From: a bacterium
Lineage (GTDB): Bacteria; Patescibacteriota; Dojkabacteria; JAKAPS01; JAJZLI01
Direction of reading: 5' to 3'
DNA: 64,000 nt
NCBI GenBank assembly: GCA_021785355.1
Contig: JAJYFR010000003.1
Span: 21,509 to 85,508 of the forward strand
The translations under genes were made by a program, and so were the position numbers. The notes under the pieces were generated by a model that had not been told where the DNA came from, ran no database searches, and saw nothing but the letters and a program-made list of their open reading frames with translations. Each line of letters begins with the position of its first letter. The stretch's first letter is position 1. This document shows positions 19,272 to 48,691 of the stretch, one piece after another.

Positions 19272-19389
19272 AATGAAATATTTTTTATTTATCAAAATGA
19301 GATAAATACATTAATAAAGTAATTAAAAAGTCATAAATATAAAATTTTCCAATACAAAATTATAATTATATTTTTGTTGTCGCATTTGG

Positions 19390-19464
19390 TGGTGAGGGCA
19401 CTGGGATTTGAACCCAGAACCAACAGCTTAAAAGGCTGATGCTCTACCGTTGAGCTATACCCCC
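19390..19464 (-). tRNA. tRNA-Lys (anticodon TTT), CCA encoded.
   Basis: Reverse complement GGGGGTATAGCTCAACGGTAGAGCATCAGCCTTTTAAGCTGTTGGTTCTGGGTTCAAATCCCAGTGCCCTCACCA. Anticodon loop CTTTTAA. Confidence 0.8.
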
Positions 19465-21769: not shown

Positions 21770-21802
21770 AAATACAATATTTATGATATAACAAAATCAA
21801 TA

Positions 21803-25238: not shown

Positions 25239-25283
25239 AGTATGCATGACAAATGCCTTTTTACCCCCTTTAAAGAACATATC
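25236..25283 (+). repeat. Left copy of a 48-bp direct repeat, starting in the last 3 nt of tRNA-Pro.
   Basis: CGAGTATGCATGACAAATGCCTTTTTACCCCCTTTAAAGAACATATCA. 46 of 48 identical to the copy at 28741-28788, and similarity extends about 8 nt further 5' into the tRNA end. Confidence 0.8.
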
Positions 25284-25484
25284 AGTCCGATTTTTTCCTC
25301 TCTTAATTTGACTCTTAAGATTATCATATTCTTTTTTTCTGCTCTAAATTAATATGACAATTATTTGATATGGTTGATATTATTACAATATCTTTATCTA
25401 GGTTTTTTAATACCCCAAGAAGAAATAATAGATATAATTGAAAAATGTATTCTCAAAATTAAAAGTATAGAAGATCAACATAGA

Positions 25485-28740: not shown

Positions 28741-28788
28741 CGAGTATGCATGACAAATGTCTTTTTACCCCATTTAAAGAACATATCA
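28741..28788 (+). repeat. Right copy of the 48-bp direct repeat.
   Basis: CGAGTATGCATGACAAATGTCTTTTTACCCCATTTAAAGAACATATCA. Confidence 0.8.
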
Positions 28789-29087
28789 AATGGATTATTT
28801 AGATCACACGACAACAACTTCTTGTCCTTAATGAGATATTTAAAAAAATCTATATATTACTTTTTTTTATTTTCTTTTATCAGATTTTCTACATCTAATA
28901 TAGATTGAAATCCGATATCTTCTGCAACTTCTGCTGATATACCGTCGTATTCACCTCCAATTTGATTGGTCCTTATATTATCTAAGAAAACTGATATTAT
29001 ATCTTTTTCTGTAGTATTCATAGTATATGTATATTATATTTCAAATAAATAAAAAAATCTATATATAAGTATATTATCGCAATTTAA

Positions 29088-35332: not shown

Positions 35333-35514
35333 AATTATATACTTTGACCATAGGGCCTTACTAATATTTCATATATACCAACATTTTTTTGTTGATTTAT
35401 AACAACACTATAATTTTCTTTTTCTATTTTATCTAAGCCACCTGTTATTAAAAAGATTTTTTTAACCATATTTTATATATTATAAACCATTGGTTATTAA
35501 AAACATATTAATTT

Positions 35515-37908
35515 TTATTTTACAAATTTCCAATCAGTAATTTCTTCTGGATCTTTACCATATTTATTAATATAATCTCTATGCCAATTAATTATATCTA
35601 TATATTTTTTCTTTACATCATCTATTTTGGAGACATCATACTTGTTCCTTACAAGATCCAACGCCATCATTGCAATATGAAATCTAGATGTCTTATTTCT
35701 AATATACATATCAAAAGGAGTAGTAGTGGTTCCTTCTTCAATATAACCATTAATTATAAATCTAGAAGTGTCACCTCTATCAAATAAAAGCTGTTTTATA
35801 GCAGAAGGATATCCTATATAACTTATAATAACAGGCTTATCTTTTGTGAAATATGATATAAAATCTTTATTTGATAACCCCAAAGAAAATTCTTCAGGAG
35901 TTTCTAAAACCATTAAATTCGAAACATTTAATATTCTAAACTTTATTTCAGAAAAATCTTCTTTTAATAAAGATGAAGCAGCTAAAACTTCCTCTGTTGC
36001 ATAATCACCCATTCCAACAATAACCACATCACAATCATCACCAGAAGAAGATGCCCAATCCCAATAAGCAATACCTTTACTCATTAATTCCTTAGCCTCT
36101 TGTTGTTCTAAAAGTAAAGGTCTTTCGTCTTTTCCTGCAACAACTATATTTATTTTGTTCTTCTCTTCTAAACACATTTTCATGGTATATAAAAGTGAAT
36201 TAGGATCAGGTGGTAAATATACATTCAAAAGATCACTCTTTTTGTTTAACATATTATTTATAAAACCAGGAGATTGATGAGAGTATCCATTATGTTCTTG
36301 CCTCCAACTCAAAGATGTAAGTAAATAATTTAAAGATGAAACAGGTTTTCTCCAAGGAATCTCTAGTGATACTTTCAAAAATTTAGAGTATTGATTCATC
36401 ATGCTATCTACTATTGGTAAAAATGCTTCATAACTAGGGAATAATGCATGTCTACCTGTCAGAACATAACCTTCCATCCATCCTTGACAGATATGCTCAG
36501 ATAGTATTTCCATAACTCTTCCTTCTGGAGCAATAAAATCATCGTATTTAGAGTGAGGCCATAAATATTGTCTCTCAGTCACTTCAAATACAGCTTCCAA
36601 TTTATTTGAAATTAATTCATCAGGAGAAAATATTCTAAAATTTCTCTTTTCTTCATTTTTAGAAATAACATCTCTCAAATACTGACCTACCCTCTCCATT
36701 CCACTTGATCTTACAGAACATCTACTCTCTAAATCAAATGAATATCCATCAATACTAGGTAAAGACAAAGATATTCTAACTTCTCCACCCAAAGAATGAA
36801 TGTTTGTTCCCATTCTTCTATCTCCCTTAGGTATAATTGAAAATAACTCATTAATCATGGTTTTATCTTCATTTAATAATTCTCCAATATTATAAGAAGA
36901 AAGCCAATCTTGTACTAATCTTAAATGATTTTTATTTGTCTTTACATCTACTGCAGGAACTTGATGAGCTCTGAATGAACCTTCAATTTTCTTACCATCC
37001 ATTTCTTTTATTCCTCCCATACCTTTTGGAGTCTTAAGTACTATTAATGGCCATCTAAAAGGACCATACATATTTGTAGATCTAGCAGAACTTTGTATAC
37101 TTCTGATTTGGTTATATGCCCACTCCATAGCAGAAAATAAATCTGCATTTATATCTGTATCTTGAGCTATATGCACATCATATCCTAATCCTTCGAAATA
37201 AGAGATTATCTCAGAATTACTCATTGTGCCAAATAAAGTAGGATTTGATATCTTATACCCATTCAAATGTAGAATAGGTAAAACTGCTCCATCATAAACA
37301 GGATTAATAAATTTATTACTTTGCCAAGAAGCAGATAAAGGTCCAGTTTCTGCTTCACCATCTCCTATTATACATGCAGTGATAAGATTAGGATTATCTA
37401 GTATTGAACCATAAGCAATAGATAAAGAATATCCTAGTTCTCCACCTTCTGATATTACACCAGGTAGTGAAGGATCTAAATGAGAAGGAAATCCTCCTGG
37501 CCAACTAAACTCTTTAATTAGATATTTAATACCCTTCTCATCCATTGTAAGATTAGGAAAATATTCACTCAATGTTCCTTCAAGATATAAATTAGCCCTA
37601 TTAGCTGGAGATCCATGACCCGGTCCTGTAACCAACATCATATTCAAATCATATTCAACTATCAATCTATTTAAATGAGCATAAATAAGGTTTATTCCTG
37701 GATCTGTCCCCCAATGTCCTAATAGTCTTTCCTTTATATCAGAGGGTATAAGTTCTCTTTCTAAAAAAAAATTATCCTTCAGATATAACTGTGCTGCAGA
37801 AAGGTAATTCGTTAATCTTAAATATTTTTCAATTAAATCTAATATATCACTATTTCTACTTCTAGTATCTCTTGTACTTTCTGGTCTTATTATTACTTCT
37901 TTTATCAT
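35515..37908 (-). CDS. xfp: Xylulose-5-phosphate / fructose-6-phosphate phosphoketolase.
   Basis: 797 aa. Signature EGGELGYSLSIAYG and GDGEAETGPL (thiamine-diphosphate-binding). Confidence 0.9.
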   Translation of the reverse strand: MIKEVIIRPESTRDTRSRNSDILDLIEKYLRLTNYLSAAQLYLKDNFFLERELIPSDIKERLLGHWGTDPGINLIYAHLNRLIVEYDLNMMLVTGPGHGSPANRANLYLEGTLSEYFPNLTMDEKGIKYLIKEFSWPGGFPSHLDPSLPGVISEGGELGYSLSIAYGSILDNPNLITACIIGDGEAETGPLSASWQSNKFINPVYDGAVLPILHLNGYKISNPTLFGTMSNSEIISYFEGLGYDVHIAQDTDINADLFSAMEWAYNQIRSIQSSARSTNMYGPFRWPLIVLKTPKGMGGIKEMDGKKIEGSFRAHQVPAVDVKTNKNHLRLVQDWLSSYNIGELLNEDKTMINELFSIIPKGDRRMGTNIHSLGGEVRISLSLPSIDGYSFDLESRCSVRSSGMERVGQYLRDVISKNEEKRNFRIFSPDELISNKLEAVFEVTERQYLWPHSKYDDFIAPEGRVMEILSEHICQGWMEGYVLTGRHALFPSYEAFLPIVDSMMNQYSKFLKVSLEIPWRKPVSSLNYLLTSLSWRQEHNGYSHQSPGFINNMLNKKSDLLNVYLPPDPNSLLYTMKMCLEEKNKINIVVAGKDERPLLLEQQEAKELMSKGIAYWDWASSSGDDCDVVIVGMGDYATEEVLAASSLLKEDFSEIKFRILNVSNLMVLETPEEFSLGLSNKDFISYFTKDKPVIISYIGYPSAIKQLLFDRGDTSRFIINGYIEEGTTTTPFDMYIRNKTSRFHIAMMALDLVRNKYDVSKIDDVKKKYIDIINWHRDYINKYGKDPEEITDWKFVK

Positions 37909-38249
37909 TCTTTTATCCTTATAAAATAAAATATAGAATTTTCTAGAGCTTCAATTTTATGCATCTCTCCTGCATTAAGTAAAATCACATCGTTTTTTTC
38001 ATACTCTTTTACATGATCCTCATCTTTATATTTAACATATCCTTTACCTTCTATAACCAAAGCTATTTCATCTGAACTTTCATGTTTATGCCAATCAAAA
38101 AAATTTCCTTTTAAAAGGTAATCTTTATTTAATATATCAAAATGTGGGTTATCAATATCTTTATTTGTAATAATTTCTCTTTTTCTTCCCTCTCCTCCAT
38201 GGGCAGGACTAAATTCAATATCTTTTATCTTTCTTATAATTATACACAT
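37905..38249 (-). CDS. Cupin domain protein.
   Basis: 114 aa. Cupin His/Glu pattern (HKHESSDEIALVIEG...GEMHKIEA). Overlaps both neighbouring genes. Confidence 0.45.
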   Translation of the reverse strand: MCIIIRKIKDIEFSPAHGGEGRKREIITNKDIDNPHFDILNKDYLLKGNFFDWHKHESSDEIALVIEGKGYVKYKDEDHVKEYEKNDVILLNAGEMHKIEALENSIFYFIRIKE

Positions 38250-40255
38250 AAATATATCTTAGGATCTACTGTCAAAATATCTCCTTTCTTAGTTAAGATA
38301 ATTGGATTTATATCTATCTGAGATATCTGAGGAATATTTTCAATTAGATAAGATAATCCCATTAACACATTAATAATATCACTCTCTTTGTATTTTTCAA
38401 GACCTCTAAACCCATGTAAAAGAGGGTAAAATTTAGTTTTTCTTAAAAGATTCAAAGCCTCTTCTTCATTTATAGGGAGATACTCTTTTATATGATCATC
38501 TAAAATTTCTGTTAGAATACCTCCTGTACCTAACACTATTACAGAACCTATACCTTCATATCTTATAACTCCTGTCATTATTTCAAAAGTTGAATCAATA
38601 TACTCTTGCATTAATACTCTACTAGATAAAGATTGCAATCTTCTATACGAAGATAATAAATCTTCATAGTTTTGAATATTATTAATAACCCCCTTCTTAT
38701 CTGATTTATGAGGAATATCTTTATCCTCTACTTTTAAAGTTAAAGGATATCCTATATTAAGAACTGATTTCTCTAAATCTTCTATATTTTCTATTACTCT
38801 GAATTTAGGAAATTTAATATTAAATTTTTCTAAAATATTTACACTATCTTCAAATCCTAAAATTTTACCTTTATTATTGCTATCAATTATTGAAATGATT
38901 TCTTTTTTATCTATCTTTAAATTATTTTCATATTTTATAGATTTACCATGAATAAATTTATCTAAATAGTTTAAAGCATTAATAGCTCTCTCAGGGAAAC
39001 TATATGAGGGAATCTGAAGATTTGTGAGAAAATTTATAGCTTTTTGAGCATAAAAGCCTCCTGTAAAAACTGAAATTACAAATTTTTCTGAACAAGTTAA
39101 TGAAAAATCGTTTATAACATTAGCAATTTCATCAATATCAGTACTTGCTTGAGGCGTTATTATAACCATAACTATATCTATATTTTCATCATCTTTTAGT
39201 ATATCTAAAACATCTCTATATCTTTGAGATTGAGCATCACCTAGTATATCAATAGGATTTGATACTTTTCTTCCTGAAAAATATTTCTCCAGTTTATCTT
39301 TTGTCTCTTGTGATAATTCAGCAAAAGATATTTGGCTTCCTTCCATACAATCAGTAGCTAAAATTGCCATACCTCCTGCGTTTGTAACAATTGCAAGCCT
39401 TGTTCCTTTAATATTGTTATACTTTAAATTTGCAAAAATTTTTGACACATCAAATAAATCTTCTAAAGAGGTTAGTTCTAATATGTTATTTTTTCTTAAT
39501 GCTAAAGAAAGAATATCTCTATCCGATACTATAGCACCTGTATGTGATTGTATTTCAACTTGAGATTTATTACTTTTCCCAGGAGAAAGTATAAATTTAG
39601 GATTTTTTATTTTACCAAAATTATCCATAAATTCTTTGAAATTATCTATACTTTCAAGGTAAAAACATAAACAATCATCTTCTTCTATATGATCCAAAAT
39701 ATCAATTTCAGATATATCCATTTTATTCCCCAAAGATATTGCTTTTCTGATACCTAAGTTATTTTCAGCTGAAAAATCAATAAGGGATGTAAGTATTGCC
39801 CCTGATTGAGTTACCAAAAACAAATTTCCTTCTTTAATATTTTCATTTTTACTAAATGAAGCATTTATACTTGATGATAGTACTCCACATGAATTAGGCC
39901 CAACTACTTTTATATCAGTATCTTTTATAAGGTCTTTTATTTTATTTTCACTATCTATATCTCCTGACTCTTTAAATCCTCCTGCTATTATAACTATACT
40001 TTTTACTTTTTTCTCTACACACTCTGTTACAACATTTACTACATCTTTTTTAGGTATAACAATTACAACAAGATCAATTTCATCTTTAACATCAAGAATA
40101 GAACTATAGAAAGAAGAATCATTTTTATTTACGCCATAAAGTTTACCTTTAAATGAAGAATTCTTTATATTTTTTAATATCCTATATCCTGCTTTAGCAG
40201 TATTTGTACTTGCACCAATAACAACAACAGATGAAGGATTAAATATTTTATCCAT
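38240..40255 (-). CDS. ADP-forming acetyl-CoA synthetase (NDP-forming acyl-CoA synthetase, fused alpha/beta).
   Basis: N-terminal CoA-binding Rossmann region SVVVIGASTNTAKAGYRILKN, succinyl-CoA-synthetase-like ligase domain, C-terminal ATP-grasp. 671 aa. Adjacent to phosphoketolase. Confidence 0.7.
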   Translation of the reverse strand: MDKIFNPSSVVVIGASTNTAKAGYRILKNIKNSSFKGKLYGVNKNDSSFYSSILDVKDEIDLVVIVIPKKDVVNVVTECVEKKVKSIVIIAGGFKESGDIDSENKIKDLIKDTDIKVVGPNSCGVLSSSINASFSKNENIKEGNLFLVTQSGAILTSLIDFSAENNLGIRKAISLGNKMDISEIDILDHIEEDDCLCFYLESIDNFKEFMDNFGKIKNPKFILSPGKSNKSQVEIQSHTGAIVSDRDILSLALRKNNILELTSLEDLFDVSKIFANLKYNNIKGTRLAIVTNAGGMAILATDCMEGSQISFAELSQETKDKLEKYFSGRKVSNPIDILGDAQSQRYRDVLDILKDDENIDIVMVIITPQASTDIDEIANVINDFSLTCSEKFVISVFTGGFYAQKAINFLTNLQIPSYSFPERAINALNYLDKFIHGKSIKYENNLKIDKKEIISIIDSNNKGKILGFEDSVNILEKFNIKFPKFRVIENIEDLEKSVLNIGYPLTLKVEDKDIPHKSDKKGVINNIQNYEDLLSSYRRLQSLSSRVLMQEYIDSTFEIMTGVIRYEGIGSVIVLGTGGILTEILDDHIKEYLPINEEEALNLLRKTKFYPLLHGFRGLEKYKESDIINVLMGLSYLIENIPQISQIDINPIILTKKGDILTVDPKIYLCV

Positions 40256-40352
40256 ATATTATTGTATATAACACAAATATATTAATTTATACAATAATAT
40301 TGTATTTTTCTTTTAAAGTTGTATTATCATAATAAAGGGGGGTGAGTAAGAA

Positions 40353-40844
40353 ATGAAAATAAAAAAAGAAGATTTAATATGGGGTCTTTTAAGATTAAGT
40401 TTGGGTTGGATTTTTTTCTGGGCATTTTTGGATAAATTATTTGGATTAGGTTTCTCTACAAAATTGGGAAAAGGATGGTTAGAAGGTGTATCTCCAACAT
40501 ATGGTTTCTTAAAATTTGGAGCTAAAGGTATTTTTAGTGCACCAATTCAGAGTCTAGCAGGAAACCCTTTAGTAGATTGGTTATTTATGTTAGGTTTATT
40601 TTTTATAGGTATCTCTTTAATTTTGGGAATATTTGTTAAGCTTAGTTCTTATGCAGGAATAATAATATTATTTTTAATGTGGTTATCATTATTTCCTTCT
40701 ACGAATAATCCTTTTTTAGACAAACATCTTGTGTATTTAATATTAATGTGCGGATTTATAGTATTTAATGCAGGGAATTATATAGGATTGGGAAAATGGT
40801 GGAGTAGAAATTCTCTAGTAAGTAAATATCCTATATTAAAATAA
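40353..40844 (+). CDS. DoxX-family membrane protein.
   Basis: LLRLSLGWIFFWAFLDKLFG; four transmembrane helices; 163 aa. Confidence 0.5.
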   Translation: MKIKKEDLIWGLLRLSLGWIFFWAFLDKLFGLGFSTKLGKGWLEGVSPTYGFLKFGAKGIFSAPIQSLAGNPLVDWLFMLGLFFIGISLILGIFVKLSSYAGIIILFLMWLSLFPSTNNPFLDKHLVYLILMCGFIVFNAGNYIGLGKWWSRNSLVSKYPILK

Positions 40845-40905
40845 AATCTATAGTTTGGATGTATGTAAAAATACATCCAGTACTTTTAATGTAATTTAAA
40901 TCTTT

Positions 40906-41532
40906 ATGTTCTATAATGAATATATGGACACAGAAAAAATAGAACAAATATCAATAGGAAAAGTTATTCCTGAAATTAATATAAAAACATATAATCCGAA
41001 GATTAATGCTTTTTCAGAATTCTCTTTAAAAAAATCAAAAGATAATGGAAGATGGACTGTGTTTGTCTTTTATCCCGCAGATTATACTTTTGTCTGTCCT
41101 ACCGAATTAGCAGATTATGCAACAAAACAAGAAGAATTAGAAAAAATTGGAGTTGATATAGTATCTATTAGTACAGATACAGAATTTGTACATATGGCAT
41201 GGAAAAGAGAAGAAAAATTACTTAAAGATGTAAATTTTCAAATGGGAGCAGACCATAATGGATCTGTATCAAAAATGTTTGGGGTTTATGATTATAATAC
41301 AGGAGAAGCTTATAGAGGTACATTTATCATTGATCCTAATTTGGTATTAGTCTCATCAGAGATAAATCTTAATAATGTTGGACGTGATGCAGATGAACTT
41401 ACAAGGAAAGTAAAAGCTTTTATCTATGTATCACTACATCCACATGAAGTATGTCCTGCAAAATGGAGTAAAGGACATAAAACTCTTAAACCTGAAGAAA
41501 CTACTATTGGGAATGTATCTGAATTTCTTTAA
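40906..41532 (+). CDS. Peroxiredoxin (AhpC/TSA family).
   Basis: FVFYPADYTFVCPTELADYA (peroxidatic Cys motif); 208 aa. Confidence 0.85.
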   Translation: MFYNEYMDTEKIEQISIGKVIPEINIKTYNPKINAFSEFSLKKSKDNGRWTVFVFYPADYTFVCPTELADYATKQEELEKIGVDIVSISTDTEFVHMAWKREEKLLKDVNFQMGADHNGSVSKMFGVYDYNTGEAYRGTFIIDPNLVLVSSEINLNNVGRDADELTRKVKAFIYVSLHPHEVCPAKWSKGHKTLKPEETTIGNVSEFL

Positions 41533-41540
41533 TTTTTAGA

Positions 41541-42815
41541 TTACTCATATCTTAGAGCATCTATAGGTTTTAATTTACTTGCTTTAATAGAAGGAATAGT
41601 ACCTGCTACAAAACCTACAAACATAAGAAATATTATTATCCAAATGATTTGTTCAGGATTAAATATAAGTAATTTATATCCAGGGAATGATTTCAGTATT
41701 GAATTAGAAATATATTGATCTATAATATTTCCTACAATTATAGCCAACACTGATCCTATTACGCCTCCCCAAAATCCTATACTTATTGCTTCTATTGAGA
41801 ACATTTTAAAAATATCAAAACTACTCATTCCTATTGCTTTCATCAAGCCTATTTCTCTTGTTCTTTGTATTACACTCATAAATAGTGTATTTATTATTCC
41901 AAATGATGCTACAAATAAAGCAATTAATGCAAATAATGTTAATATTGTTTCTATTGAAAGTATAATATAACTAACTTGTTGAATTTCATCTTTATAAGTT
42001 AATCCATTCATAGAATTTTTACTTAAAAGTGACTTTATTTTATTTATTTGAGTTGTTGTTAAAGTTTTCTTATATACACCTGCTATTTCAATATATGAAT
42101 TTGCTAAATTTGTTCCTTTATCTTCAAATAAAGTAATATTTTTCGCATTTTTAGTACTAATATACCCTGATCCTGTAATTATAGAATTTACTAATACACC
42201 TTTTATTGTATAACTTTTCTTTAATGATATATTTGAAAGATTTTTATATACAATATAAACTTTCTTTCCAATAGCATCTTTTGCAGATGAAAATCCCAAC
42301 GATTTCACATACATAGATGGAATAATTATATAATTATTCTCTCCTAAAGAAGGGAGACTTCCTGCTTCTAGACTAGGAGAAAAGAAACTTCCAGGATAAT
42401 TAGCTACACTAAATTTATATTTTTCATTATTCTTACTTTCTATATATTTAACCTCTGGAACATATAATGGTACTACTTTTTCTATACCTACAATATTTTT
42501 TACTATATTAACTTGTCTTTGATCTATAAAACTTATACCTAAAGTTCCATTATTTTGCTTTGAAGAATATTTTATAGGTTTTAAATTTATACCAACTCCT
42601 GTAGAATTTCCTCCGTTAGATCTAATAATAAGTGTATGGTTCATTTTGATTGAAGAAAATTGATTTTGAAGAAAATTAGTTGCACCATTCCCTAAACTCA
42701 TTGTTAATGTAATAACAAAAGCCCCTATAATAATAGAAAATATAGTTAATACTGTTCTCGTTTTAGAGAGCATTAAATTTTTATTTGCTTTTTTTATTAA
42801 ATCTAATGTTTTCAT
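41541..42815 (-). CDS. ABC transporter permease, FtsX/MacB-like.
   Basis: 424 aa. N-terminal transmembrane helix, large periplasmic loop, C-terminal FtsX-type four-helix bundle. Confidence 0.8.
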   Translation of the reverse strand: MKTLDLIKKANKNLMLSKTRTVLTIFSIIIGAFVITLTMSLGNGATNFLQNQFSSIKMNHTLIIRSNGGNSTGVGINLKPIKYSSKQNNGTLGISFIDQRQVNIVKNIVGIEKVVPLYVPEVKYIESKNNEKYKFSVANYPGSFFSPSLEAGSLPSLGENNYIIIPSMYVKSLGFSSAKDAIGKKVYIVYKNLSNISLKKSYTIKGVLVNSIITGSGYISTKNAKNITLFEDKGTNLANSYIEIAGVYKKTLTTTQINKIKSLLSKNSMNGLTYKDEIQQVSYIILSIETILTLFALIALFVASFGIINTLFMSVIQRTREIGLMKAIGMSSFDIFKMFSIEAISIGFWGGVIGSVLAIIVGNIIDQYISNSILKSFPGYKLLIFNPEQIIWIIIFLMFVGFVAGTIPSIKASKLKPIDALRYE

Positions 42816-42819
42816 TTCT

Positions 42820-43482
42820 TTATATAACCTTTCCGTCTTGTATATGTATTAACTGTGAACATATCCCAGATACATCCTTATCATGAGTTACTATAACAAC
42901 AGTTTTGGAAGATTTCTTGTTTAAATTAATTAATAAATCTATAATATTCTGACTATTTTCTGTATCTAAATTACCTGTTGGTTCATCTGCAAATATTATA
43001 TCTGGATTATTTACAATAGCTCTTGCAACACAAATTCTTTGTTTTTGTCCACCCGATAAATTTATAACTTTCTCATTTACTTTATCCATCATATCAACAC
43101 TTTCTAATGCATCTAGAGCCATTTTACGCCTTTTTGCAAATGATATACCAGAAATTTCTAAAGGAAGCATGATATTGCTAAGCGATGTTTCTTTTTCTTG
43201 AAGATAAAAAAATTGAAATACAAATCCAATTTTTTCATTTCTAAATTTATTTAGTTCTTTATTTTTTATAACCGAAATATTTACATTATCTATCTCAATT
43301 TTACCTTTATCAACACTGTCTAACCCTGACATAACATGCATTAAAGTAGATTTTCCAGACCCAGATTTTCCTACAATTCCTACAATACTTGCTGTTTCTA
43401 TTTCTAGTGAAATGTCATTAAGAGCTGTAAATTTATTTTCCTTTTTACCATAAGTTTTAGTTACATTTGAAACTTTGATCAT
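42820..43482 (-). CDS. ABC transporter ATP-binding protein (MacB/LolD-type).
   Basis: Walker A GKSGSGKSTLMHV, ABC signature LSGGQKQR, Walker B IIFADEPTGNLD. Confidence 0.9.
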   Translation of the reverse strand: MIKVSNVTKTYGKKENKFTALNDISLEIETASIVGIVGKSGSGKSTLMHVMSGLDSVDKGKIEIDNVNISVIKNKELNKFRNEKIGFVFQFFYLQEKETSLSNIMLPLEISGISFAKRRKMALDALESVDMMDKVNEKVINLSGGQKQRICVARAIVNNPDIIFADEPTGNLDTENSQNIIDLLINLNKKSSKTVVIVTHDKDVSGICSQLIHIQDGKVI

Positions 43483-43652
43483 TCTAATATGTTATATATC
43501 ATATAAAATATAAGAAGTAAATTAAAAACACACAATGGTGTATGTTGAATATTTAATATAAAGGATGACTATGTTTTTATAATGTTATTTTGCAACTTAG
43601 TATATTTTCTAACCAATTCACGTTGCATCCTAAATATCTGGTTTAATAATTA

Positions 43653-43681
43653 TTGACATCTAAAATGGAACAGTCTATAAT
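43653..43681 (+). promoter_or_regulatory. Consensus sigma70 promoter giving a leaderless or near-leaderless transcript for the 43690 gene.
   Basis: TTGACA at 43653-43658, 17-nt spacer, TATAAT at 43676-43681. The ORF ATG sits at 43690, about 8 nt after the -10 element. Confidence 0.5.
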
Positions 43682-43689
43682 ACTATACT

Positions 43690-44460
43690 ATGAGACCAGA
43701 GCTAGATAGGCAATTTGAGAATGAGTTAGAAAAACTATCTATGTTAGCTATGTTATATGGTGAAAAGGTGGATGAAAACGGTACACCAGTCAATGAATCT
43801 GATATAGAACTTTTTGAAAGAATATCTAAGTTACATTCTTATTTTCCTGATAATAATAGAGCTATTAATGATGCTATAGAAGAAGACAAAGAGTATCCTA
43901 GTGAGAAAAAAGTTTTTTCTTTTTATAATGGAATAGTAGAGTTATATAAGGATCTATATCAATTAGAACCAACAATGAAGACAACTCAAGTATATCACTA
44001 TATATCAGATGGACAAGTTTTACAACATGAAATAATTCGTAGTAAAATTTCTAAGAGTGGAAGCAAGGCTAGTCTTACATATTATGTAATTGAAGGAGAA
44101 GACATGGCGAAAGAAAAAATTGATGATCCTAATAAAGTCAATGACTTGGTCTATATTCACATAGATATTCCTATAGGAGATTTTGTATATGATATTTCGT
44201 TCAGTATAGATAATCCTAATGGTAAACTAGGGAACCCTGATTATGTAATTCAAAAAGATAGTGCAGGGAATCCTGTTAAGATTTTATGGGAAATAGATGG
44301 TCCTCATATCAGGAGGCAATTAAGAGGTTTTACTGAAAAAATAATAGAACATGGGTTTTTAGGTACTGACTATAATGAGATAGGTTTTGATCTAAATCTT
44401 AAAAATACAGAAATTGATGCAATGAAAATTGTATTTGAAGATTTTGGTATACACATCTAA
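43690..44460 (+). CDS. Hypothetical protein.
   Basis: 256-aa ORF with a strong promoter; no motif. Confidence 0.35.
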   Translation: MRPELDRQFENELEKLSMLAMLYGEKVDENGTPVNESDIELFERISKLHSYFPDNNRAINDAIEEDKEYPSEKKVFSFYNGIVELYKDLYQLEPTMKTTQVYHYISDGQVLQHEIIRSKISKSGSKASLTYYVIEGEDMAKEKIDDPNKVNDLVYIHIDIPIGDFVYDISFSIDNPNGKLGNPDYVIQKDSAGNPVKILWEIDGPHIRRQLRGFTEKIIEHGFLGTDYNEIGFDLNLKNTEIDAMKIVFEDFGIHI

Positions 44461-44592
44461 ATACTGTGGTAATAATCTTGAATATCTAAAAGTGTCTTTT
44501 ACTCTTATCTAAAATATAACCCTATTCCATTTATATTAAACTATTTTTAGATCTATTATAATAGGAAATAATATTAGTATATAATTATCCTT

Positions 44593-45740
44593 TTAAAATA
44601 GTTCTTCAATCTTTTGGAAATAATTTTTTGAATTAAGAACTATAAACTTATGTTCTATAGGAAATATATCTTTGCTCTTCTTATCCTCACTCACTTTAAT
44701 CTCTATACTTATATAGTTCTTTTTATAATCCTCCAATACTATATCAACCTCTGCCCCAGAATATTCTCTATAAAAATAGATAGTCTCTTTTATATCTAAA
44801 TTTTTCCTCCTCTTCTCTATTTCTGATACTATAAAATTTTCAAAGACGCCTCTTTTATCAGGACGAATATTAAGATCTCTAAAATCTTTTACTAGAATAT
44901 TTCGAATTCCTAAATCATAAAAAAACAATTTTCTATTTTCTGACACAGCACGCCTCATATTTGTTTTGAATGATGGTAGTGGGATAAGAATATAATTTTT
45001 GATAAAAATTTCTATATAATTGGATACAGTAGTTTCATTGGCATTTAAACTCTTTGCTATTTCTCTGACAGAAACTTCAGATCCAATTTGTAATGCTATC
45101 TTAGTTAATATATCCTTAGCAAGTTTTTCATCTTTTAAATTATATATATTAACAACATCTTTAAGAACATAAGTATCAAGGATACTTTGCAACAAGTTTA
45201 TTATCTCTACTTCACTTAATTCAGTATTTGCATATATCTCAGGATAAGCTCCATAAATTTGCAACTTACTTTGAAGATTATATTTAAAATTTGACATTTC
45301 ATATGCTGGAACTGAACTATTTTGCACACATTCCCCAATAGACATAGGTAAACAGTAATGTTCCGTATATCTTTCTAAAAGTATATCAAAATCCTTAGAT
45401 GATTTCTTCTTTAATTCACTACTCCCTGTAGCAATTATTTTAACTTTGTACTTATCATGAAGTATTTTGGAGAGACTGTACCTTCTGGATAATTTTGTAC
45501 TTCATCAATAAGAATTATTTTAGTTTCTGCTACAATACTTGAAAGTGCATCCTCAGTGTTGATAAAGCGTTCTTTATCTGAAAGTAAATCAAAGTTAAAT
45601 ATAGGTATAGAAAATTCTTTAGATATTTCTTCAAGAATAGTAGTTTTGCCAGAACGCCTAGGTCCCCAAATAAAAAATATCTTAAAATCATCACTTTTTA
45701 TATAGTTATCTAATTGTTTCTTAATTAATCTTGTTAACAT
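44593..45740 (-). pseudogene. Disrupted AAA_14/DUF4143-type ATPase gene (N-terminal and C-terminal fragments in different frames).
   Basis: 45435..45740 encodes the Walker A N-terminus FFIWGPRRSGKTTILEEI...IDEVQNYPE. 44593..45345 encodes the C-terminal DUF4143-like part. A 90-nt gap and frame change separate them. The intact paralog is at 47236..48489. Confidence 0.5.
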
Positions 45741-45828
45741 ATATTATATATTAACATAAATGTATATAATGCCAATATGTATTTTAATATGAAAATATAT
45801 ACTACATGCAGCCAATTTTATCTATAAT

Positions 45829-45910
45829 TGTCGCATTTGGTGACCTTAAGGTGCCTCAGATCGAACCGCTTTTAGTTTGGATTATTAAATTGATAAAAGT
45901 ATATTTAAAA
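45829..45910. repeat. Degenerate tRNA 3'-end-like repeat (copy A) just downstream of the Fic gene.
   Basis: The reverse complement contains GCGGTTCGATCTGAGGCACCTTAAGGTCACCAAATGCGACAA, which resembles the T-arm/acceptor of tRNA-Glu plus the tRNA-Lys 3' flank. About 60% identical to copy B over 75 nt. No cloverleaf can be formed. Confidence 0.6.
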
Positions 45911-45922
45911 TGATGAAATTTT

Positions 45923-46990
45923 TCAATCTTTTATTATTCTATAGTAAGTTCCCACTCCTTGTCCCAATTTTTCAACTTTCTTTAACTTAATTAATTTATT
46001 TAATACCTGCCTTAGCGTATCTCTTCCTATATCTGTGTTTTGAGATATATCTTTAGGTCTTGCTTCTCCTACTTTAGATATATATTCCCAAACTTTTAAT
46101 TGTATCTTAGTAAGTAAAGATTCTATATTATCATTTGATCTAAAATCAACAGCATATTGAGCTTGCATAATCATAATATCTATAAAAAAATTCATCCAAG
46201 GTAGAATATTTTCCATTTTTTTGTTGAAAGTTTTTTGACTTTTCATCAAAGAGAGGTAATATTCTTGTTTATTTTCTTCTATCAACTTTTCATGAGAGCT
46301 ATATTCTGCATATTTATATCCCCCCTTTAATAATAAAAAACTAGTTAATATTCTTGATAACCTACCATTTCCATCCTGAAACGGATGAATCTTCAAAAAT
46401 TCAACAATAAAATTTCCAATCACTAATAATGGGTGATATTTCTTCGCGAGTAAAGCATTTTGAGTCCATTCTACAAGAGAATGCATTTGGTGAGAAACTA
46501 AATATGGAGGTGTAGTTTCAAAAATCACCTCTACAATATTATTAGGTTCATCTATTAACTCAACATGATTAGGTAGATTTTTATATTCTCCTTTATGTGA
46601 TTGATCCTTTTCTACATATTTTAGAAGTTCATTGTGAAAAGATTTAATACAGTTTTCATTGAAAGTTAAAGTATTAAAATTATTAAATACATTTTCTAGA
46701 AGCTCGAAGTATCCTTTCACTTCTTGCTCATCTCTATTTCTAAAATTTTGAATTTTTATGCCTTTAATAACTTTCTCAATCTCTTCATCAGATAGTCCTG
46801 ATCCTTCAATTCTGGTTGAAGCTCCTGTTGAGGTTATTAGGGCCGACTGTTTAAGTCTACCAAGTGTTTGAGGACTTAATTTCATGCCTCCAATCCACAT
46901 ACCTTTGAGCTCATCGGTTTTAGATATCTTTAGATATATATCTGATGTAATACTTTCTAGTCTTTTATCGAATCTTTTATGATCATCCAT
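45923..46990 (-). CDS. Fic-family protein (AMPylator / Fic-Doc).
   Basis: Canonical Fic motif HPFQDGNGRLSRIL; C-terminal winged-HTH-like region. 355 aa. Confidence 0.85.
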   Translation of the reverse strand: MDDHKRFDKRLESITSDIYLKISKTDELKGMWIGGMKLSPQTLGRLKQSALITSTGASTRIEGSGLSDEEIEKVIKGIKIQNFRNRDEQEVKGYFELLENVFNNFNTLTFNENCIKSFHNELLKYVEKDQSHKGEYKNLPNHVELIDEPNNIVEVIFETTPPYLVSHQMHSLVEWTQNALLAKKYHPLLVIGNFIVEFLKIHPFQDGNGRLSRILTSFLLLKGGYKYAEYSSHEKLIEENKQEYYLSLMKSQKTFNKKMENILPWMNFFIDIMIMQAQYAVDFRSNDNIESLLTKIQLKVWEYISKVGEARPKDISQNTDIGRDTLRQVLNKLIKLKKVEKLGQGVGTYYRIIKD

Positions 46991-47117
46991 AATAAAGTAT
47001 ATTTAACTATACTCAACTATACTACATAATACGACTAATTGCAAGTATTGGTCATGTTGCTATTTCAAACTACACTTGTAGGCAGGTTCTATCAGTACAT
47101 TCAGGATGTTTCAAGTG

Positions 47118-47200
47118 GTAGTGTCGCATCACTTGATCTTGGTGTGCCCTAGATCTAACCCCTTTAGTTTAGATTATTAAAATGATAAAAGTAATCTAGA
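47118..47200. repeat. Degenerate tRNA 3'-end-like repeat (copy B) just downstream of the AAA/DUF4143 gene.
   Basis: The reverse complement contains GGGGTTAGATCTAGGGCACACCAAGATCAAGTGATGCGACA. Compare the tRNA-Glu 3' end GGGTTCGAATCCCGCCAAGGTCAAGT. Confidence 0.6.
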
Positions 47201-47235
47201 TTTTTACTATATCTAATTAAAAAATTATGAATAAT

Positions 47236-48489
47236 TTATATAATTTGCTTTACCAAAACTTTCCATAAAGGAATAAATATTATCTTTTTTTCATCAAATA
47301 CTAATTCTTCTTCAACAGATTCTGTGATAACAGTAGCATTAGTTACATCTAATGATTTCATTGCCTTTAGAAGAGATTTTGGATTAAACTCAGAAATATC
47401 ATTTATGTATTTAGACTCTATCAGTTCTAATCTATCCTGATATTTCAATATAAAATCTACTTCTACTTTATTATCATAATAGAAATAAATTGAATCTGAA
47501 TATTTCTTATATAAATAATCAAACAAAGTTCTCTCTGCAGATTGACCTTTATTAAATTTACCAGATTGATTAAATTGTAATCCATTATCATTTAAATAGT
47601 ATTTTTTAGCAAAATATATTCTCTCATTCCTGCTTGAAGAATAACGTTGTAATTCATATACAGAAAAACTTCCCTTTAAAGCATATATATATTCCCTCAC
47701 TGTTTCTTTACTTATAGACAGAATATTTCCTATTTTTGAAAGACTTGAATGAGACCCTGTTCTATCTGAAAGTAATTTAAATAAGTCTTTAACAATATCT
47801 AAATTTTTAATATTAAAATATTCTACAAAATCTTTATATACAATACTGTCTACAAGATTAGGAAAATATTGTGGATCCTCTTTAATAACATATTCTGGAT
47901 ATCCTCCTTTAAATAAATATTCATTTAATTCATTTTGATATTTATAACTCTCAGATGGAAGAATTTTAATACCTCTAATGCCTATCCATTCTAAAAAATT
48001 TAAAGGATATAAATTCATAATTTCATATCTACCTGTTAGAAAAGATGTTTTTGTATGAATTTTAAAACTTGCAGATCCAGATAAAACTATTTGTATATTT
48101 GGCTCAGTATCATAAAGATTCTTTACTTCTTGCTCCCATGAATCTTTATATTGAATCTCATCTAAGAAAATATATATTTTCTCATCTATACTAAGATTAT
48201 GAATTTTTCTATATTCTCTTAGTAAATTAACAATTGTTATATCTTCAAATGCCCTTGTATCTAAAAGTAAATATAGTATATTTTTTTCTTTTATTCTTGA
48301 TTTTAAAAGATAATCTATATATTGATATATCAAAAAAGTTTTTCCTACACGTCTCCCTCCAAGTAACATTGTAACTTTATTATTTAAAGCCATACTCTTT
48401 AATTTATCAAGAGATTGTTTTCTTATTATCCCTATATTAAATTCTCTATTCATCCACCAAGGATTTTGCATATATAATGTTTCTTCCAT
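47236..48489 (-). CDS. AAA_14/DUF4143-type ATPase.
   Basis: Walker A MLLGGRRVGKTFLIYQY, Walker B IFLDEIQY, C-terminal DUF4143-like region. 417 aa. Confidence 0.65.
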   Translation of the reverse strand: MEETLYMQNPWWMNREFNIGIIRKQSLDKLKSMALNNKVTMLLGGRRVGKTFLIYQYIDYLLKSRIKEKNILYLLLDTRAFEDITIVNLLREYRKIHNLSIDEKIYIFLDEIQYKDSWEQEVKNLYDTEPNIQIVLSGSASFKIHTKTSFLTGRYEIMNLYPLNFLEWIGIRGIKILPSESYKYQNELNEYLFKGGYPEYVIKEDPQYFPNLVDSIVYKDFVEYFNIKNLDIVKDLFKLLSDRTGSHSSLSKIGNILSISKETVREYIYALKGSFSVYELQRYSSSRNERIYFAKKYYLNDNGLQFNQSGKFNKGQSAERTLFDYLYKKYSDSIYFYYDNKVEVDFILKYQDRLELIESKYINDISEFNPKSLLKAMKSLDVTNATVITESVEEELVFDEKKIIFIPLWKVLVKQII

Positions 48490-48616
48490 GTACTAATTAT
48501 GATATATTATCCAATAATTGTCAATATCGGAGAATTCAGATTGACGATAGTAACATTACTCTCGAAATTCTTCATCAATATATTTGGAACGTTTCAAACG
48601 TGTGATATCGAGTTAC

Positions 48617-48691
48617 TTGACCTTGGCGGGATTCGAACCCGCGATTACCAGGATGAAAACCTGGTGTCCTAGTCCACTAGACGACAAGGCC
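48617..48691 (-). tRNA. tRNA-Glu (anticodon TTC).
   Basis: Reverse complement GGCCTTGTCGTCTAGTGGACTAGGACACCAGGTTTTCATCCTGGTAATCGCGGGTTCGAATCCCGCCAAGGTCA. Anticodon loop TTTTCAT. Confidence 0.8.

What the first reader, a model, noticed from the sequence alone, without database searches (positions are those of the whole stretch)
44593..48691. tRNA-Glu-proximal region with Fic and AAA_14/DUF4143 genes, each followed by a tRNA-3'-end-like repeat
Downstream of tRNA-Glu (48617..48691, minus strand) lie an intact AAA_14/DUF4143 ATPase gene, a Fic-family gene (HPFQDGNGRLSRIL) and a second AAA_14/DUF4143 gene broken into two frames. Two of these genes, the intact ATPase gene and the Fic gene, are each followed within about 15-40 bp of the stop codon by an ~80-bp element (45829..45910 and 47118..47200). 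The elements are about 60% identical to each other. Their reverse complement resembles the T-arm/acceptor end of tRNA-Glu (GGGTTCGAATCCCGCCAAGGTCAAGT versus GGGGTTAGATCTAGGGCACACCAAGATCAAGT and GCGGTTCGATCTGAGGCACC...GGTCACCA). Copy A also shares a 15-nt exact match (CACCAAATGCGACAA) with the 3' flank of tRNA-Lys at 19.4 kb. This is the footprint expected from repeated integration of small elements at a tRNA 3' end followed by loss of the integrases and gene decay. Fic and DUF4143 ATPases are typical cargo of such islets.
Basis: seen in the sequence. Interest (0 to 1): 0.6.

Follow-up and report, generated by a model that had tools for sequence, protein, structure and literature searches.

The report
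Integrase-less gene cassettes stacked at tRNA-Glu
The two ~80-bp repeats are junction (attachment) sites between small mobile gene cassettes inserted one after another at the 3' end of a tRNA-Glu gene in a tiny-genome CPR bacterium. The cassettes carry no integrase, yet nearly identical copies occur in clearly different species.

Summary
tRNA-Glu(UUC), an intact AAA_14/DUF4143 ATPase gene, a Fic gene and a frame-broken second ATPase gene are where stated.

Within the window, resemblance to tRNA-Glu is weak. Related genomes settle it. Eleven distinct junctions in five other CPR genome contexts share this layout:
- a conserved left arm ending in a pseudo-T-arm (AAAGCGGTTCGATCTGAGGCACCTT)
- a core, AAGGTCA(AGTAA), identical to the last bases of tRNA-Glu
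- a right arm homologous to genuine tRNA-Glu 3' flanks

All junctions lie downstream of a tRNA-Glu gene in the same orientation. Two occupied-versus-empty comparisons show precise insertion at the core. The ATPase and Fic cassettes are 98.7% and 97.4% identical to copies in a genome whose flanking core genes are only 73-76% identical, and their order in the array differs.

None of about a dozen cassettes encodes a site-specific recombinase, so "integrase loss and decay" is not supported. They most likely move as integrase-less units using a recombinase supplied in trans, which I did not identify. The nearest known analogues are tandem accretion with cis-mobilizable elements and the Dehalococcoides ssrA islands. 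It is not an integron attC, a MITE, a terminator or a structured RNA.

The parts
48618..48691 (-). tRNA-Glu(UUC), the anchor of the array. Its last 7 nt, AAGGTCA (48624-48618), are the core shared with every junction.
   Evidence: ARAGORN and Rfam; junction table.
48571..48617 (-). Left (tRNA-proximal) arm of cassette 1: agtaactcgatatcacacgtttgaaacgttccaaatatattgatgaa. It travels with the ATPase gene.
   Evidence: It is 96% identical to the sequence following junction e4 in TL1-1.bin64, directly upstream of the same ATPase.
48496..48524 (-). Promoter-like site (TTGACA-17-CATAAT, 11 of 12) inside a conserved inverted repeat upstream of the ATPase gene. The cassette has its own promoter.
   Evidence: The same motif lies upstream of ATPase homologues in L009 and L011.
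47236..48489 (-). Cassette 1 cargo: intact AAA_14/DUF4143 ATPase (417 aa).
   Evidence: Pfam. The block 48584-47122 is 98.7% identical at the nucleotide level to the TL1-1.bin64 copy.
47141..47193 (-). Right arm of cassette 1, ending in the pseudo-T-arm (…AATCTAAACTAAAGGGGTTAGATCTAGGGCACACC).
   Evidence: The same arm variant follows the same ATPase in TL1-1.bin64 (junction e5).
47122..47140 (-). Core of junction 1: AAGATCA followed by AGTGATGCGACA. It corresponds to the tRNA-Glu end AAGGTCA followed by AGTAAC.CGA.A.
47059..47133 (-). Right side of junction 1, an 'R1'-type arm. It is homologous to genuine tRNA-Glu 3' flanks of other genomes and lies upstream of the Fic gene.
   Evidence: Scores of 92 and 95 against the L018 and TL1-1.bin64 tRNA-Glu flanks, with a shuffle maximum of 26-29.
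45923..46990 (-). Cassette 2 cargo: Fic-family protein (355 aa, HPFQDGNGRLSRIL).
   Evidence: Pfam. The block 47070-45828 is 97.4% identical to the TL1-1.bin64 copy.
45848..45901 (-). Right arm of cassette 2, ending in the pseudo-T-arm (…AATCCAAACTAAAAGCGGTTCGATCTGAGGCACCTT).
   Evidence: Identical to the arm after the Fic gene in TL1-1.bin64 (junction e2).
45828..45847 (-). Core of junction 2: AAGGTCA followed by CCAAATGCGACAA. The second part contains the 15-nt match to the tRNA-Lys flank.
44593..45740 (-). Third unit: AAA_14/DUF4143 ATPase pseudogene split into 45435-45740 and 44593-45345. No further junction follows it, so the distal end of the array is undefined.
19377..19391 (-). CACCAAATGCGACAA immediately 3' of tRNA-Lys. 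The surrounding ~100 nt are homologous to the right side of a tRNA-Glu array junction in another genome (L029 e1).
   Evidence: score 86 against a shuffle maximum of 32.

Best explanation
The region is an array of small, integrase-less mobile gene cassettes inserted by site-specific recombination at the extreme 3' end of tRNA-Glu. The two repeats are the junction (att) sites between cassettes.

Each cassette has three parts:
- a left arm, ~45-75 nt, of the form AGTRAYGCGACA…GAAACATC..AATGTATTGAT…
- cargo: one gene or a small operon, with its own promoter in at least the ATPase cassette
- a right arm, ~50 nt, ending in a conserved pseudo-T-arm, AAAGCGGTTCGATCTGAGGCACCTT

Recombination happens within the short core AAGGTCA(AGTAA), which is the last 7 nt of the tRNA plus a few flanking bases. 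Each new cassette lands next to the tRNA. It leaves the tRNA intact and pushes the earlier flank or cassette outward. Every internal junction therefore reads: right arm of cassette n, then core, then left arm of cassette n+1.

Shown:
- precise insertion at the core
- all copies tied to tRNA-Glu
- recent transfer of whole cassettes between divergent genomes
- reshuffled cassette order
- no recombinase gene in any cassette
- no conserved fold

Inferred:
- A recombinase encoded elsewhere acts in trans.
- Its class is open. In the junctions the GGTTCGA motif lies 5 bp further from the core than in the tRNA, which is the attP-versus-attB offset typical of large serine recombinases. A second GGTTCGAAAT-like motif in the right-side arms would instead fit arm-type sites of a tyrosine integrase.
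For: 1. Family and location.
- A 21-nt pattern taken from the repeats found true copies only in low-GC CPR MAGs. Each lies downstream of a tRNA-Glu gene in the same orientation.
- A profile search of all fetched loci found copies only in such arrays.
- There are 11 distinct junctions. The segment AAAG.GGTT.GAT.T..GGCA is nearly invariant, and AAG.TCA is invariant.

2. Occupied versus empty sites.
- L015 and L009 are ~96% identical. L015 has an ~800-nt toxin-antitoxin cassette at tRNA-Glu(CUC), bounded by identical AAGGTCAAGTAA. L009 has the tRNA followed directly by the sequence that follows the junction in L015.
- L029 has two cassettes between tRNA-Glu(UUC) and the flank/His_Phos gene. That flank directly follows the tRNA in TL1-1.bin64.
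- More distant relatives (L031, L032) have the tRNA followed by dnaJ, with no arm and no GCGACA motif.

3. Mobility as units.
- The window's ATPase and Fic cassettes are 98.7% and 97.4% identical to TL1-1.bin64 copies. The adjacent GPI/AI-2E/PmbA genes are 73-76% identical.
- The order is tRNA|ATPase|Fic in the window. In TL1-1.bin64 it is tRNA|4.8 kb|Fic|4 genes|TA|ATPase.
- The arms co-travel with the ATPase cassette in both genomes.

4. No recombinase in the cassettes. A regex screen for recombinase motifs found only an unrelated large serine recombinase at 6468-8207.

5. The junction is not an RNA or hairpin element.
- Consensus fold is -4.55 kcal/mol with 1 compensatory pair.
- Single-strand DNA folding gives z = -2.2 and +1.2.
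- There is no Rfam hit and no terminator.
Against: - No recombinase was identified, and no circular or excised form was observed, so site-specific recombination is inferred from the junctions alone.
- For the Fic cassette, the first ~63 nt after the core differ between the two genomes (~60% identity) while the rest is 97% identical. Arms are therefore exchanged by some further process, such as homologous recombination or gene conversion, or the crossover point is not always at the core.
- The 1.6-kb ATPase insertion in L009 relative to L015 has degenerate, unclear junctions.
- The third unit in the window has no distal junction.
- In TL1-1.bin64, 4.8 kb including a His_Phos gene and a DDE (rve) transposase lies between the tRNA and the first junction. 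It may be a large cassette or native DNA.
- Sampling is small: six genome contexts, all from one CPR subclade.
Confidence: 0.7

Rival explanations
1. Each unit is the decayed remnant of a larger integrative element (prophage, ICE or IME) that once carried its own integrase. The repeats are old attR scars and nothing is mobile any more.
For: - The units sit at a tRNA 3' end with att-like repeats.
- One ATPase gene is frame-broken.
- The junction in L009/L015 at ~6800/6400 is visibly degenerate.
- CIMEs are classically explained this way (PMC5704250).
Against: - The same integrase-less units, with the same arms, occur at 97-99% identity in genomes 73-76% identical in core genes, and at different array positions.
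- About 12 different cassettes were seen and none has an integrase remnant.
- Insertion/absence polymorphism exists between ~96% identical genomes.
Confidence: 0.13
2. The junctions are conserved repeats that serve only as homology anchors. Cassettes are swapped between genomes by DNA uptake and homologous recombination between flanking repeats, with no dedicated site-specific recombinase.
For: - Junctions provide ~75 nt (left) and ~45-80 nt (right) of 70-95% identical sequence.
- The Fic cassette shows a mosaic breakpoint ~63 nt from the core.
- A pilin-like gene with an N-terminal methylation motif is present in the window, which is compatible with a DNA-uptake apparatus.
Against: - Homologous recombination does not explain how the architecture arose. 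That includes the pseudo-T-arm, the sharing of a core with the very end of the tRNA, and naive tRNA-Glu sites in relatives that lack any arm.
- It also does not explain the precise 12-nt-bounded insertion in L015 relative to L009.
- Homologous recombination may well act in addition to site-specific recombination.
Confidence: 0.1
3. This is an integron-type array. The repeats are attC sites that fold as single-stranded hairpins and are recombined by an IntI-type integrase.
For: - It is an array of mostly single-gene cassettes separated by a repeated ~80-130-nt site.
- Toxin-antitoxin and Fic cargo are typical of chromosomal integrons.
- Cassette order is shuffled.
Against: - Neither strand shows a conserved imperfect hairpin.
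- No R''/R' GTTRRRY boxes were seen by inspection.
- Copies are conserved in sequence rather than in structure.
- No intI was found near any array.
- Cassettes occur in both orientations and carry their own promoter.
- The array is anchored on a tRNA.
Confidence: 0.03
4. The repeats are a generic dispersed repeat, terminator or small RNA, and the tRNA similarity is coincidental.
For: - Each repeat lies just after a stop codon.
- Similarity to tRNA-Glu within the window alone is marginal or not significant.
Against: - No terminator, no fold and no Rfam hit.
- Copies occur only downstream of tRNA-Glu.
- The right halves are homologous to real tRNA-Glu flanks.
Confidence: 0.02

Closest known systems
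Tandem accretion at tRNA genes and cis-mobilizable elements (CIMEs), e.g. ICESt1/ICESt3-related elements of Streptococcus (review PMC5704250)
   Same: Several units lie in tandem at the 3' end of one tRNA gene. Each is bounded by att-type direct repeats, and the units lack integration and transfer genes but retain att sites.
   Different: - No cognate integrase-bearing element was found in any array.
- The units are very small (0.8-4.8 kb, often a single gene).
- Identical integrase-less units are shared between species and change position in the array, which is more like integron cassettes than decayed ICEs.
- The host is a ~0.76-Mb CPR genome.
Dehalococcoides ssrA-specific genomic islands (PMC3146451)
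   Same: - Multiple tandem islands lie downstream of a tRNA-like gene.
- Each is bounded by a short direct repeat of the gene's 3' end.
- A conserved element-side motif lies just upstream of the repeat and does not align with the gene itself. This parallels the pseudo-T-arm here.
- Some islands lack the integration module and were proposed to be cis-mobilizable.
   Different: - There, 16 islands carry a CcrB-like serine recombinase module next to attL. Here, no cassette does.
- The target here is tRNA-Glu (both the UUC and CUC genes), not ssrA.
- The inferred crossover here is in the acceptor 3' end rather than the T-loop.
Chromosomal integrons and CALINs (clusters of attC sites lacking an integrase)
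   Same: An ordered array of small cassettes is separated by a repeated recombination site. The cargo is rich in toxin-antitoxin and Fic-type genes. New cassettes enter at one fixed end, and cassette order is reshuffled.
   Different: - The junctions are conserved in sequence with no hairpin.
- The anchor is a tRNA gene, not attI/intI.
- Cassettes have their own promoters and occur in either orientation.
Large serine recombinase attP/attB pairs (own knowledge: the Rutherford and Van Duyne model, in which the zinc-ribbon-domain motif lies ~5 bp further from the centre in attP than in attB)
   Same: GTTCGA lies 26 nt from the end of the core in the junctions and 21 nt in tRNA-Glu, a +5 bp offset. 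The tRNA-Pro islet shows the same +5, but its motif similarity is weaker.
   Different: - No serine recombinase is linked to the arrays.
- The right half-sites show no such offset.
- The 7-12-nt identity core is longer than the 2-bp crossover a serine integrase needs.
- Repeated re-use of an attL-like site is not standard behaviour for these enzymes.

Membership tests
tRNA-targeting integrative element / genomic island | Located at the 3' end of a tRNA gene, in the tRNA's orientation | tested here: met
   All junctions in the window, TL1-1.bin64, L029, L015, L009 and L018 lie downstream of tRNA-Glu(UUC or CUC) on the same strand.
tRNA-targeting integrative element / genomic island | Bounded by a direct repeat of the tRNA 3' end (att core) | tested here: met
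   AAGGTCA is shared by the tRNA and all junctions. The identical segment in L015 is 12 nt, AAGGTCAAGTAA.
tRNA-targeting integrative element / genomic island | Precise empty site in a related genome | tested here: met
   L009 is empty relative to L015. The TL1-1.bin64 tRNA-to-His_Phos junction is empty relative to L029.
tRNA-targeting integrative element / genomic island | Encodes its own integrase | tested here: not met
   No Phage_integrase, Resolvase or Recombinase domain in any cassette. The only DDE (rve) gene is in the 4.8-kb TL1-1.bin64 segment.
Cis-mobilizable element (CIME) / accretion | Retains attL and attR but lacks integration and transfer genes | tested here: met
   Same evidence as the rows above for the att core and the absence of an integrase; see the junction table.
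Cis-mobilizable element (CIME) / accretion | A related integrase-encoding element uses the same att site | tested here: not met
   None was found in six genome contexts. Exact-pattern scans of IMG/VR and JGI metagenomes gave 0 hits. Complete genomes could not be scanned.
Integron (attC array) | attC: imperfect hairpin with R''/L''/L'/R' boxes, conserved in structure rather than sequence | tested here: not met
   Consensus fold -4.55 kcal/mol with 12 pairs and 1 compensatory change. Single-strand DNA folding is not better than shuffles for one copy and z = -2.2 for the other. The copies are conserved in sequence.
Integron (attC array) | An intI tyrosine recombinase and attI adjacent to the array | tested here: not met
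   The tRNA-proximal neighbours are an AI-2E transporter and a GPI gene. No box-II motif was found in the window or loci.
MITE / dispersed repeat family | Many copies dispersed in the genome, with terminal inverted repeats and target-site duplications | tested here: not met
   Only 2 copies in the 64-kb window. All pattern hits in the GTDB species-representative genomes for three MAGs lie inside tRNA-Glu arrays. The complete 757-kb genome itself could not be scanned.
tRNA pseudogene / structured tRNA-like RNA | Matches the tRNA covariance model, or has a pairing T-arm and acceptor stem | tested here: not met
   No RF00005 hit at E<=5. The T-stem 3' strand is replaced by a longer, non-complementary segment.
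Large serine recombinase att site | attP half-site motif displaced ~5 bp outward relative to attB; central dinucleotide with dyad symmetry; a serine recombinase gene associated with the site | tested here: inconclusive
   The +5 offset is seen on the left half-site only. No dyad symmetry was evident by inspection. The only serine recombinase in the window (6468-8207) belongs to a different element and shows no demonstrated link to the arrays.

The most novel reading that the evidence does not exclude
CPR (Patescibacteria) bacteria of this clade may possess a dedicated, integron-like gene-capture platform.
- The 3' end of tRNA-Glu (and probably also tRNA-Pro and tRNA-Lys) would serve as the fixed entry site.
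- Integrase-less cassettes would carry a conserved pseudo-tRNA attachment site.
- A single chromosomal recombinase, possibly a large serine recombinase as the +5-bp half-site offset hints, would insert, excise and reshuffle the cassettes and exchange them between species.

This would be a recombination-site architecture distinct from both attC integrons and classical integrase-bearing islands.
Probability: 0.3. Interest if true: 0.75.

Novelty: new variant of a known kind. Interest (0 to 1): 0.58.

Why it matters
CPR bacteria have very small genomes (~0.76 Mb here) and are usually described as poor in mobile elements. How they gain and exchange accessory genes is poorly understood.

This locus shows a compact route. 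Single-gene or small-operon cassettes plug in at a tRNA 3' end and are shared almost unchanged between species that differ by about 25% in neighbouring core genes. Cargo seen here includes Fic, toxin-antitoxin pairs, DUF4143 ATPases and a four-gene metabolic cluster.

If a trans-acting recombinase can be matched to the well-defined ~130-bp site, two things follow. It would give a tractable model of gene flux in uncultivated ultra-small bacteria. It might also give a new recombinase and att pair with a tRNA-mimicking site.

The result also cautions annotators. Short 'tRNA-3'-like' repeats after genes in such genomes mark cassette boundaries, not terminators.

Tried and rejected
- Rfam, at gathering thresholds and at E<=5: only the real tRNAs were found.
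- RNA and single-strand DNA folding of the junctions, as a test for attC, a terminator or a structured RNA: no conserved structure.
- Exact-pattern scans of JGI metagenomes (two patterns) and IMG/VR: 0 hits. No phage or plasmid carrier was found. These collections also appear not to hold this clade. One pattern matches a junction in L029, which is a JGI contig, yet that contig was not returned.
- Search for a recombinase.
  - A regex screen of all ORFs of at least 120 aa in the window and key loci was run.
  - Pfam was run on about 60 ORFs, and the precomputed Pfam listings were read.
  - The only hits were a large serine recombinase at 6468-8207 and one rve transposase in TL1-1.bin64.
- I first thought the serine recombinase marked an island integrated at the tRNA-Gln 3' end. 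The comparison with L036 instead places the identity boundary at about nt 9 of tRNA-Phe. No strain lacking the island was found that would define its att sites. I therefore could not test whether a genuine serine-recombinase element shows the +5 offset.
- Reading the right-side 'R1' arm as a degenerate tRNA: the stems do not pair, and neither ARAGORN nor Rfam detects one.
- A dif/Xer-like site in the arms: no convincing match by inspection. This was not tested formally.
- Literature searches for integrons or genomic islands in Patescibacteria, and for DUF4143, returned nothing relevant.

Full report
**1. What is in the window**

The window has 26.9% G+C. Protein searches place it in the Patescibacteria (CPR). 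The nearest named relatives are Dojkabacteria and other Patescibacteria. The same locus occurs in NCBI assembly GCA_027424915.1 and in a 757-kb contig.

On the minus strand, the features run in this order:
- tRNA-Glu(UUC), 48691-48618
- an intact AAA_14/DUF4143 ATPase gene, 48489-47236
- a Fic gene, 46990-45923
- a second AAA_14/DUF4143 gene split into two frames, 45740-45435 and 45345-44593

- They align at 58/73 positions, with a score of 69 against a maximum of 29-36 in 2000 shuffles.
- They share a 31-mer found nowhere else in the window.
- The octamer ATGCGACA occurs three times against 0.16 expected: in both repeats and just 3' of tRNA-Lys.

Using the window alone, similarity to tRNA-Glu is marginal for one copy (2 of 2000 shuffles) and absent for the other. 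Neither copy resembles a tRNA for Rfam, even at E<=5.

**2. The repeats belong to a family found only downstream of tRNA-Glu**

I scanned one genome per GTDB species with a 21-nt degenerate pattern from the most conserved part of the repeats.
- It returned nine loci. Five were high-GC chance matches.
- The other four loci, from three low-GC CPR MAGs, were true copies.
- One of those MAGs, TL1-1.bin64, has four pattern hits within 6.5 kb. A fifth junction of the variant type was found later.

Looking up contigs that encode close homologues of the window's ATPase, Fic and AI-2E transporter added further contexts: L009/L010, L023-L028 and L029. In every case a tRNA-Glu gene (UUC or CUC anticodon) lies upstream of the copies on the same strand.

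A profile built from the junctions hits nothing else in any fetched locus. That includes the rest of the 64-kb window, an ATPase homologue inside an ATP-synthase operon (L011), a Fic homologue in a polysaccharide locus (L012), and tRNA-Glu loci of more distant relatives.

**3. Anatomy of a junction**

Eleven distinct junctions were aligned. They show three parts.

(i) A left arm of about 50 nt, TAyTTtTAt…ATAATCCAAACTA. It ends in a nearly invariant AAAGCGGTTCGATCTGAGGCACCTT.
- Its first half resembles the variable-loop/T-loop part of tRNA-Glu (AATCGCGGGTTCGAAT).
- Its second half is a longer segment that cannot pair.
- As a result, GTTCGA lies 26 nt from the end of the core, against 21 nt in the tRNA.

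(ii) The core AAGGTCA, identical to the last 7 nt of tRNA-Glu. It is usually followed by A(G/T)T(A/G)A(C/T)GCGACA.

(iii) A right arm of 45-80 nt that falls into a few related types.
- The commonest type ('R1') is …GCGACACCCCCACTTGAAACATCCCGAATGTATTGATAGAACCTGCCTACAAGTGCGGTTCGAAATGC.
- This same sequence directly follows the real tRNA-Glu gene in TL1-1.bin64, L015 and L018.
- The right half of the window's 47118-47200 junction matches those genuine tRNA flanks with scores of 92 and 95, against a shuffle maximum of 26-29.
- The junction profile hits every tRNA-Glu 3' end plus flank from profile position ~58 onward, at E = 4.5e-8 to 2.5e-5.

What the junctions share with the tRNA is therefore its extreme 3' end and what follows it. 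They do not share its T-arm.

**4. Direct evidence for precise insertion**

*L015 versus L009.* These are ~96% identical over kilobases.
- In L009, tRNA-Glu(CUC) is followed by AAGGTCAAGTAA-cgcgacacctccacttgaaatagccc.
- In L015, the tRNA is followed by AAGGTCAAGTAA-atcgatgacccccacttgaaacatccc….
- L015 then has an ~800-nt cassette (antitoxin-like ORF plus toxin remnant), the arm …ccaaaccaaaagtggttcgatttgaggcacctt, AAGGTCAAGTAA again, and finally the L009 flank.
- This is a textbook occupied/empty pair with a 12-nt identity segment.

*L029 versus TL1-1.bin64.* L029 has two cassettes, each ending in a junction, between tRNA-Glu(UUC) and a flank plus His_Phos gene. That flank directly follows the tRNA in TL1-1.bin64.

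*Distant relatives.* In L031 and L032 the AI-2E protein is 50-56% identical to the window's. Their tRNA-Glu is followed within 15 nt by dnaJ, with no arm and no GCGACA motif. The arms are therefore brought in by the cassettes.

**5. The cassettes move as integrase-less units**

I compared the window with TL1-1.bin64 (L023).
- The core genes next to the tRNA (GPI, AI-2E transporter, PmbA/TldD) are 73-76% identical at the nucleotide level.
- The ATPase unit (48584-47122, plus its tRNA-proximal arm 48624-48571) is 98.7% and 96% identical.
- The Fic unit (47070-45828) is 97.4% identical.
- The ATPase unit keeps the same left arm and the same variant right arm (AAAGGGGTTAGATCTA.GGCACACC) in both genomes.

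Array order differs between the two genomes.
- Window: tRNA | ATPase | Fic | broken ATPase.
- TL1-1.bin64: tRNA | 4.8 kb (His_Phos, rve, hypothetical, ABC-F) | Fic | NAD-synthase-like + CN-hydrolase + decarboxylase + ATP-grasp-like | YafQ-type toxin-antitoxin | ATPase.

L018 has a PIN toxin-antitoxin cassette. L029 has two cassettes of unknown function.

None of these units encodes a tyrosine or serine recombinase. Independently decayed islands would not yield the same integrase-less unit, with the same ends, in two divergent genomes at different array positions.

**6. What the junctions are not**

- The consensus fold of the 11 junctions is -4.55 kcal/mol, with one compensatory pair.
- Single-stranded DNA folding of either strand is unremarkable (z = -2.2 to +1.2).
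- There is no intrinsic terminator in the region and no Rfam match.
- The sites are conserved in sequence, not in structure.

This argues against attC sites, terminators and structured RNAs. It fits double-stranded recombinase binding sites.

**7. Mechanism and its open part**

The most economical model is site-specific recombination between a cassette-borne site and the tRNA-Glu 3' end.
- The cassette-borne site is right arm + core + left arm. It is rebuilt at every internal junction.
- Crossover occurs inside AAGGTCA(AGTAA).
- The tRNA is left intact and earlier cassettes are displaced outward.
- The recombinase must act in trans. I did not find it.

Two clues point in different directions.
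- The +5-bp displacement of the GGTTCGA motif, relative to the tRNA, is what large serine recombinases show between attP and attB half-sites (my own knowledge of the Rutherford/Van Duyne model). The tRNA-Pro islet in the same window shows the same +5, with weaker motif similarity.
- All R1-type right arms carry a second GGTTCGAAAT-like motif 62-68 nt from the core. Together with the 7-12-nt identity core, this is more like arm-type sites of a tyrosine integrase.

For the Fic cassette, the first ~63 nt after the core differ between genomes while the rest is 97% identical. Arms are therefore also exchanged, probably by homologous recombination between junctions.

**8. Comparison with known systems**

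The closest known systems are:
- tandem accretion with cis-mobilizable elements at tRNA genes (PMC5704250)
- the Dehalococcoides ssrA islands (PMC3146451)

In the Dehalococcoides case, many tandem islands lie downstream of ssrA. Each is bounded by a 20-bp repeat of its 3' end, preceded by a conserved motif that does not align with ssrA. A CcrB-like serine recombinase is present in most islands, and some islands lack it.

The present case differs in four ways:
- every unit lacks the recombinase
- the units are cassette-sized
- the units are shared between species and reshuffled
- the host is a CPR bacterium

It behaves like an integron but fails the defining attC and intI tests. I therefore class it as a new variant of a known kind.

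**9. Limits**

- The sample is small: six genome contexts from one clade.
- Complete genomes could not be scanned.
- No excised form was observed.
- The distal end of the window's array is undefined.
- One apparent insertion (the ATPase in L009 relative to L015) has degenerate junctions.

Noticed in passing
window 25237-25296 and 28741-28800 (with tRNA-Pro at 25166-25239): A 60-nt direct repeat (88% identical) starts at the last 3 nt of tRNA-Pro and recurs 3.5 kb downstream. It brackets a three-gene cluster on the opposite strand: a Ddl-like ATP-grasp, a C39-like peptidase and a second ATP-grasp. The distal copy is preceded by a T-arm-like GTTCAAACTC…, placed 5 nt further from the repeat than in the tRNA. 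This is the same +5 layout as at tRNA-Glu, so it looks like a second integrase-less tRNA-linked islet.
   Followed up: partly
window 19300-19400 (3' flank of tRNA-Lys, 19390-19464): About 100 nt downstream of tRNA-Lys are ~80% identical to the sequence that follows a tRNA-Glu array junction in another genome (L029 e1). The score is 86 against a shuffle maximum of 32. This suggests that the same cassette arms also occur at tRNA-Lys, or that cassettes move between tRNA-Lys and tRNA-Glu sites. No second repeat was found at the tRNA-Lys locus.
   Followed up: partly
window 1-8360; serine recombinase at 6468-8207(+); L035/L036: There is an element of at least 17.7 kb. It encodes a large serine recombinase (574-579 aa), a PLD-SNF2 helicase (1160 aa), an MmeI-like methyltransferase, DUF3644 proteins and HTH regulators. 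It includes tRNA-Gly, tRNA-Gln and most of tRNA-Phe. It is 99.98% identical in contig ERZ27237515:k141_1210408, where it abuts a 42%-GC flank (the element itself is 26% GC). Identity starts at about nt 9 of tRNA-Phe. This is either very recent transfer into a different host or an assembly chimera at a tRNA.
   Followed up: partly
window 8127-8207: The last ~27 codons of the serine recombinase ORF are read from the antisense strand of the whole tRNA-Gln gene. The stop codon lies just beyond the tRNA's 5' end.
   Followed up: no
L011 5938-5985 and 7276-7320: A 65%-identical homologue of the DUF4143 ATPase sits inside an F-type ATP synthase operon. It is flanked by a 44-nt direct repeat, GATTCGTCTACCCyMAATCTCCGATTTTGACAATTATCGGAGA. 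This repeat is the ATPase's own promoter region, with a -35 TTGACA in the loop of an 8-bp inverted repeat. The motif is also upstream of the window's ATPase (48496-48545). This points to a separate way in which these ATPase genes move or duplicate their promoter.
   Followed up: partly
L009 6853-8449 versus L015 ~6456: A 1.6-kb segment carrying an 86%-identical ATPase is present in L009 and absent from the ~96% identical L015. It lies next to a degenerate junction copy (AAAGCGTTTCGATCTGAGGTATGTTAATTTTAAGTAAT). Its boundaries share only TTA, and a second very degenerate arm-like sequence lies at its right end.
   Followed up: partly
window 35333-48617 compared with L031/L032: In more distant relatives, tRNA-Glu is followed within ~15-55 nt by dnaJ and an MFS transporter gene. 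In the window, dnaJ (34652-35332) lies 13 kb from tRNA-Glu. The intervening DNA holds the cassette array plus ABC/MacB, AhpC, an ADP-forming CoA ligase and phosphoketolase genes. No junction copies were detected there, so I cannot tell whether these genes also arrived through the tRNA-Glu site.
   Followed up: no
window 21125-22399: There are two tandem signal peptidase I (Peptidase_S26) genes, about 69-76% identical at the DNA level with 678-nt spacing. This is an ordinary tandem duplication.
   Followed up: no
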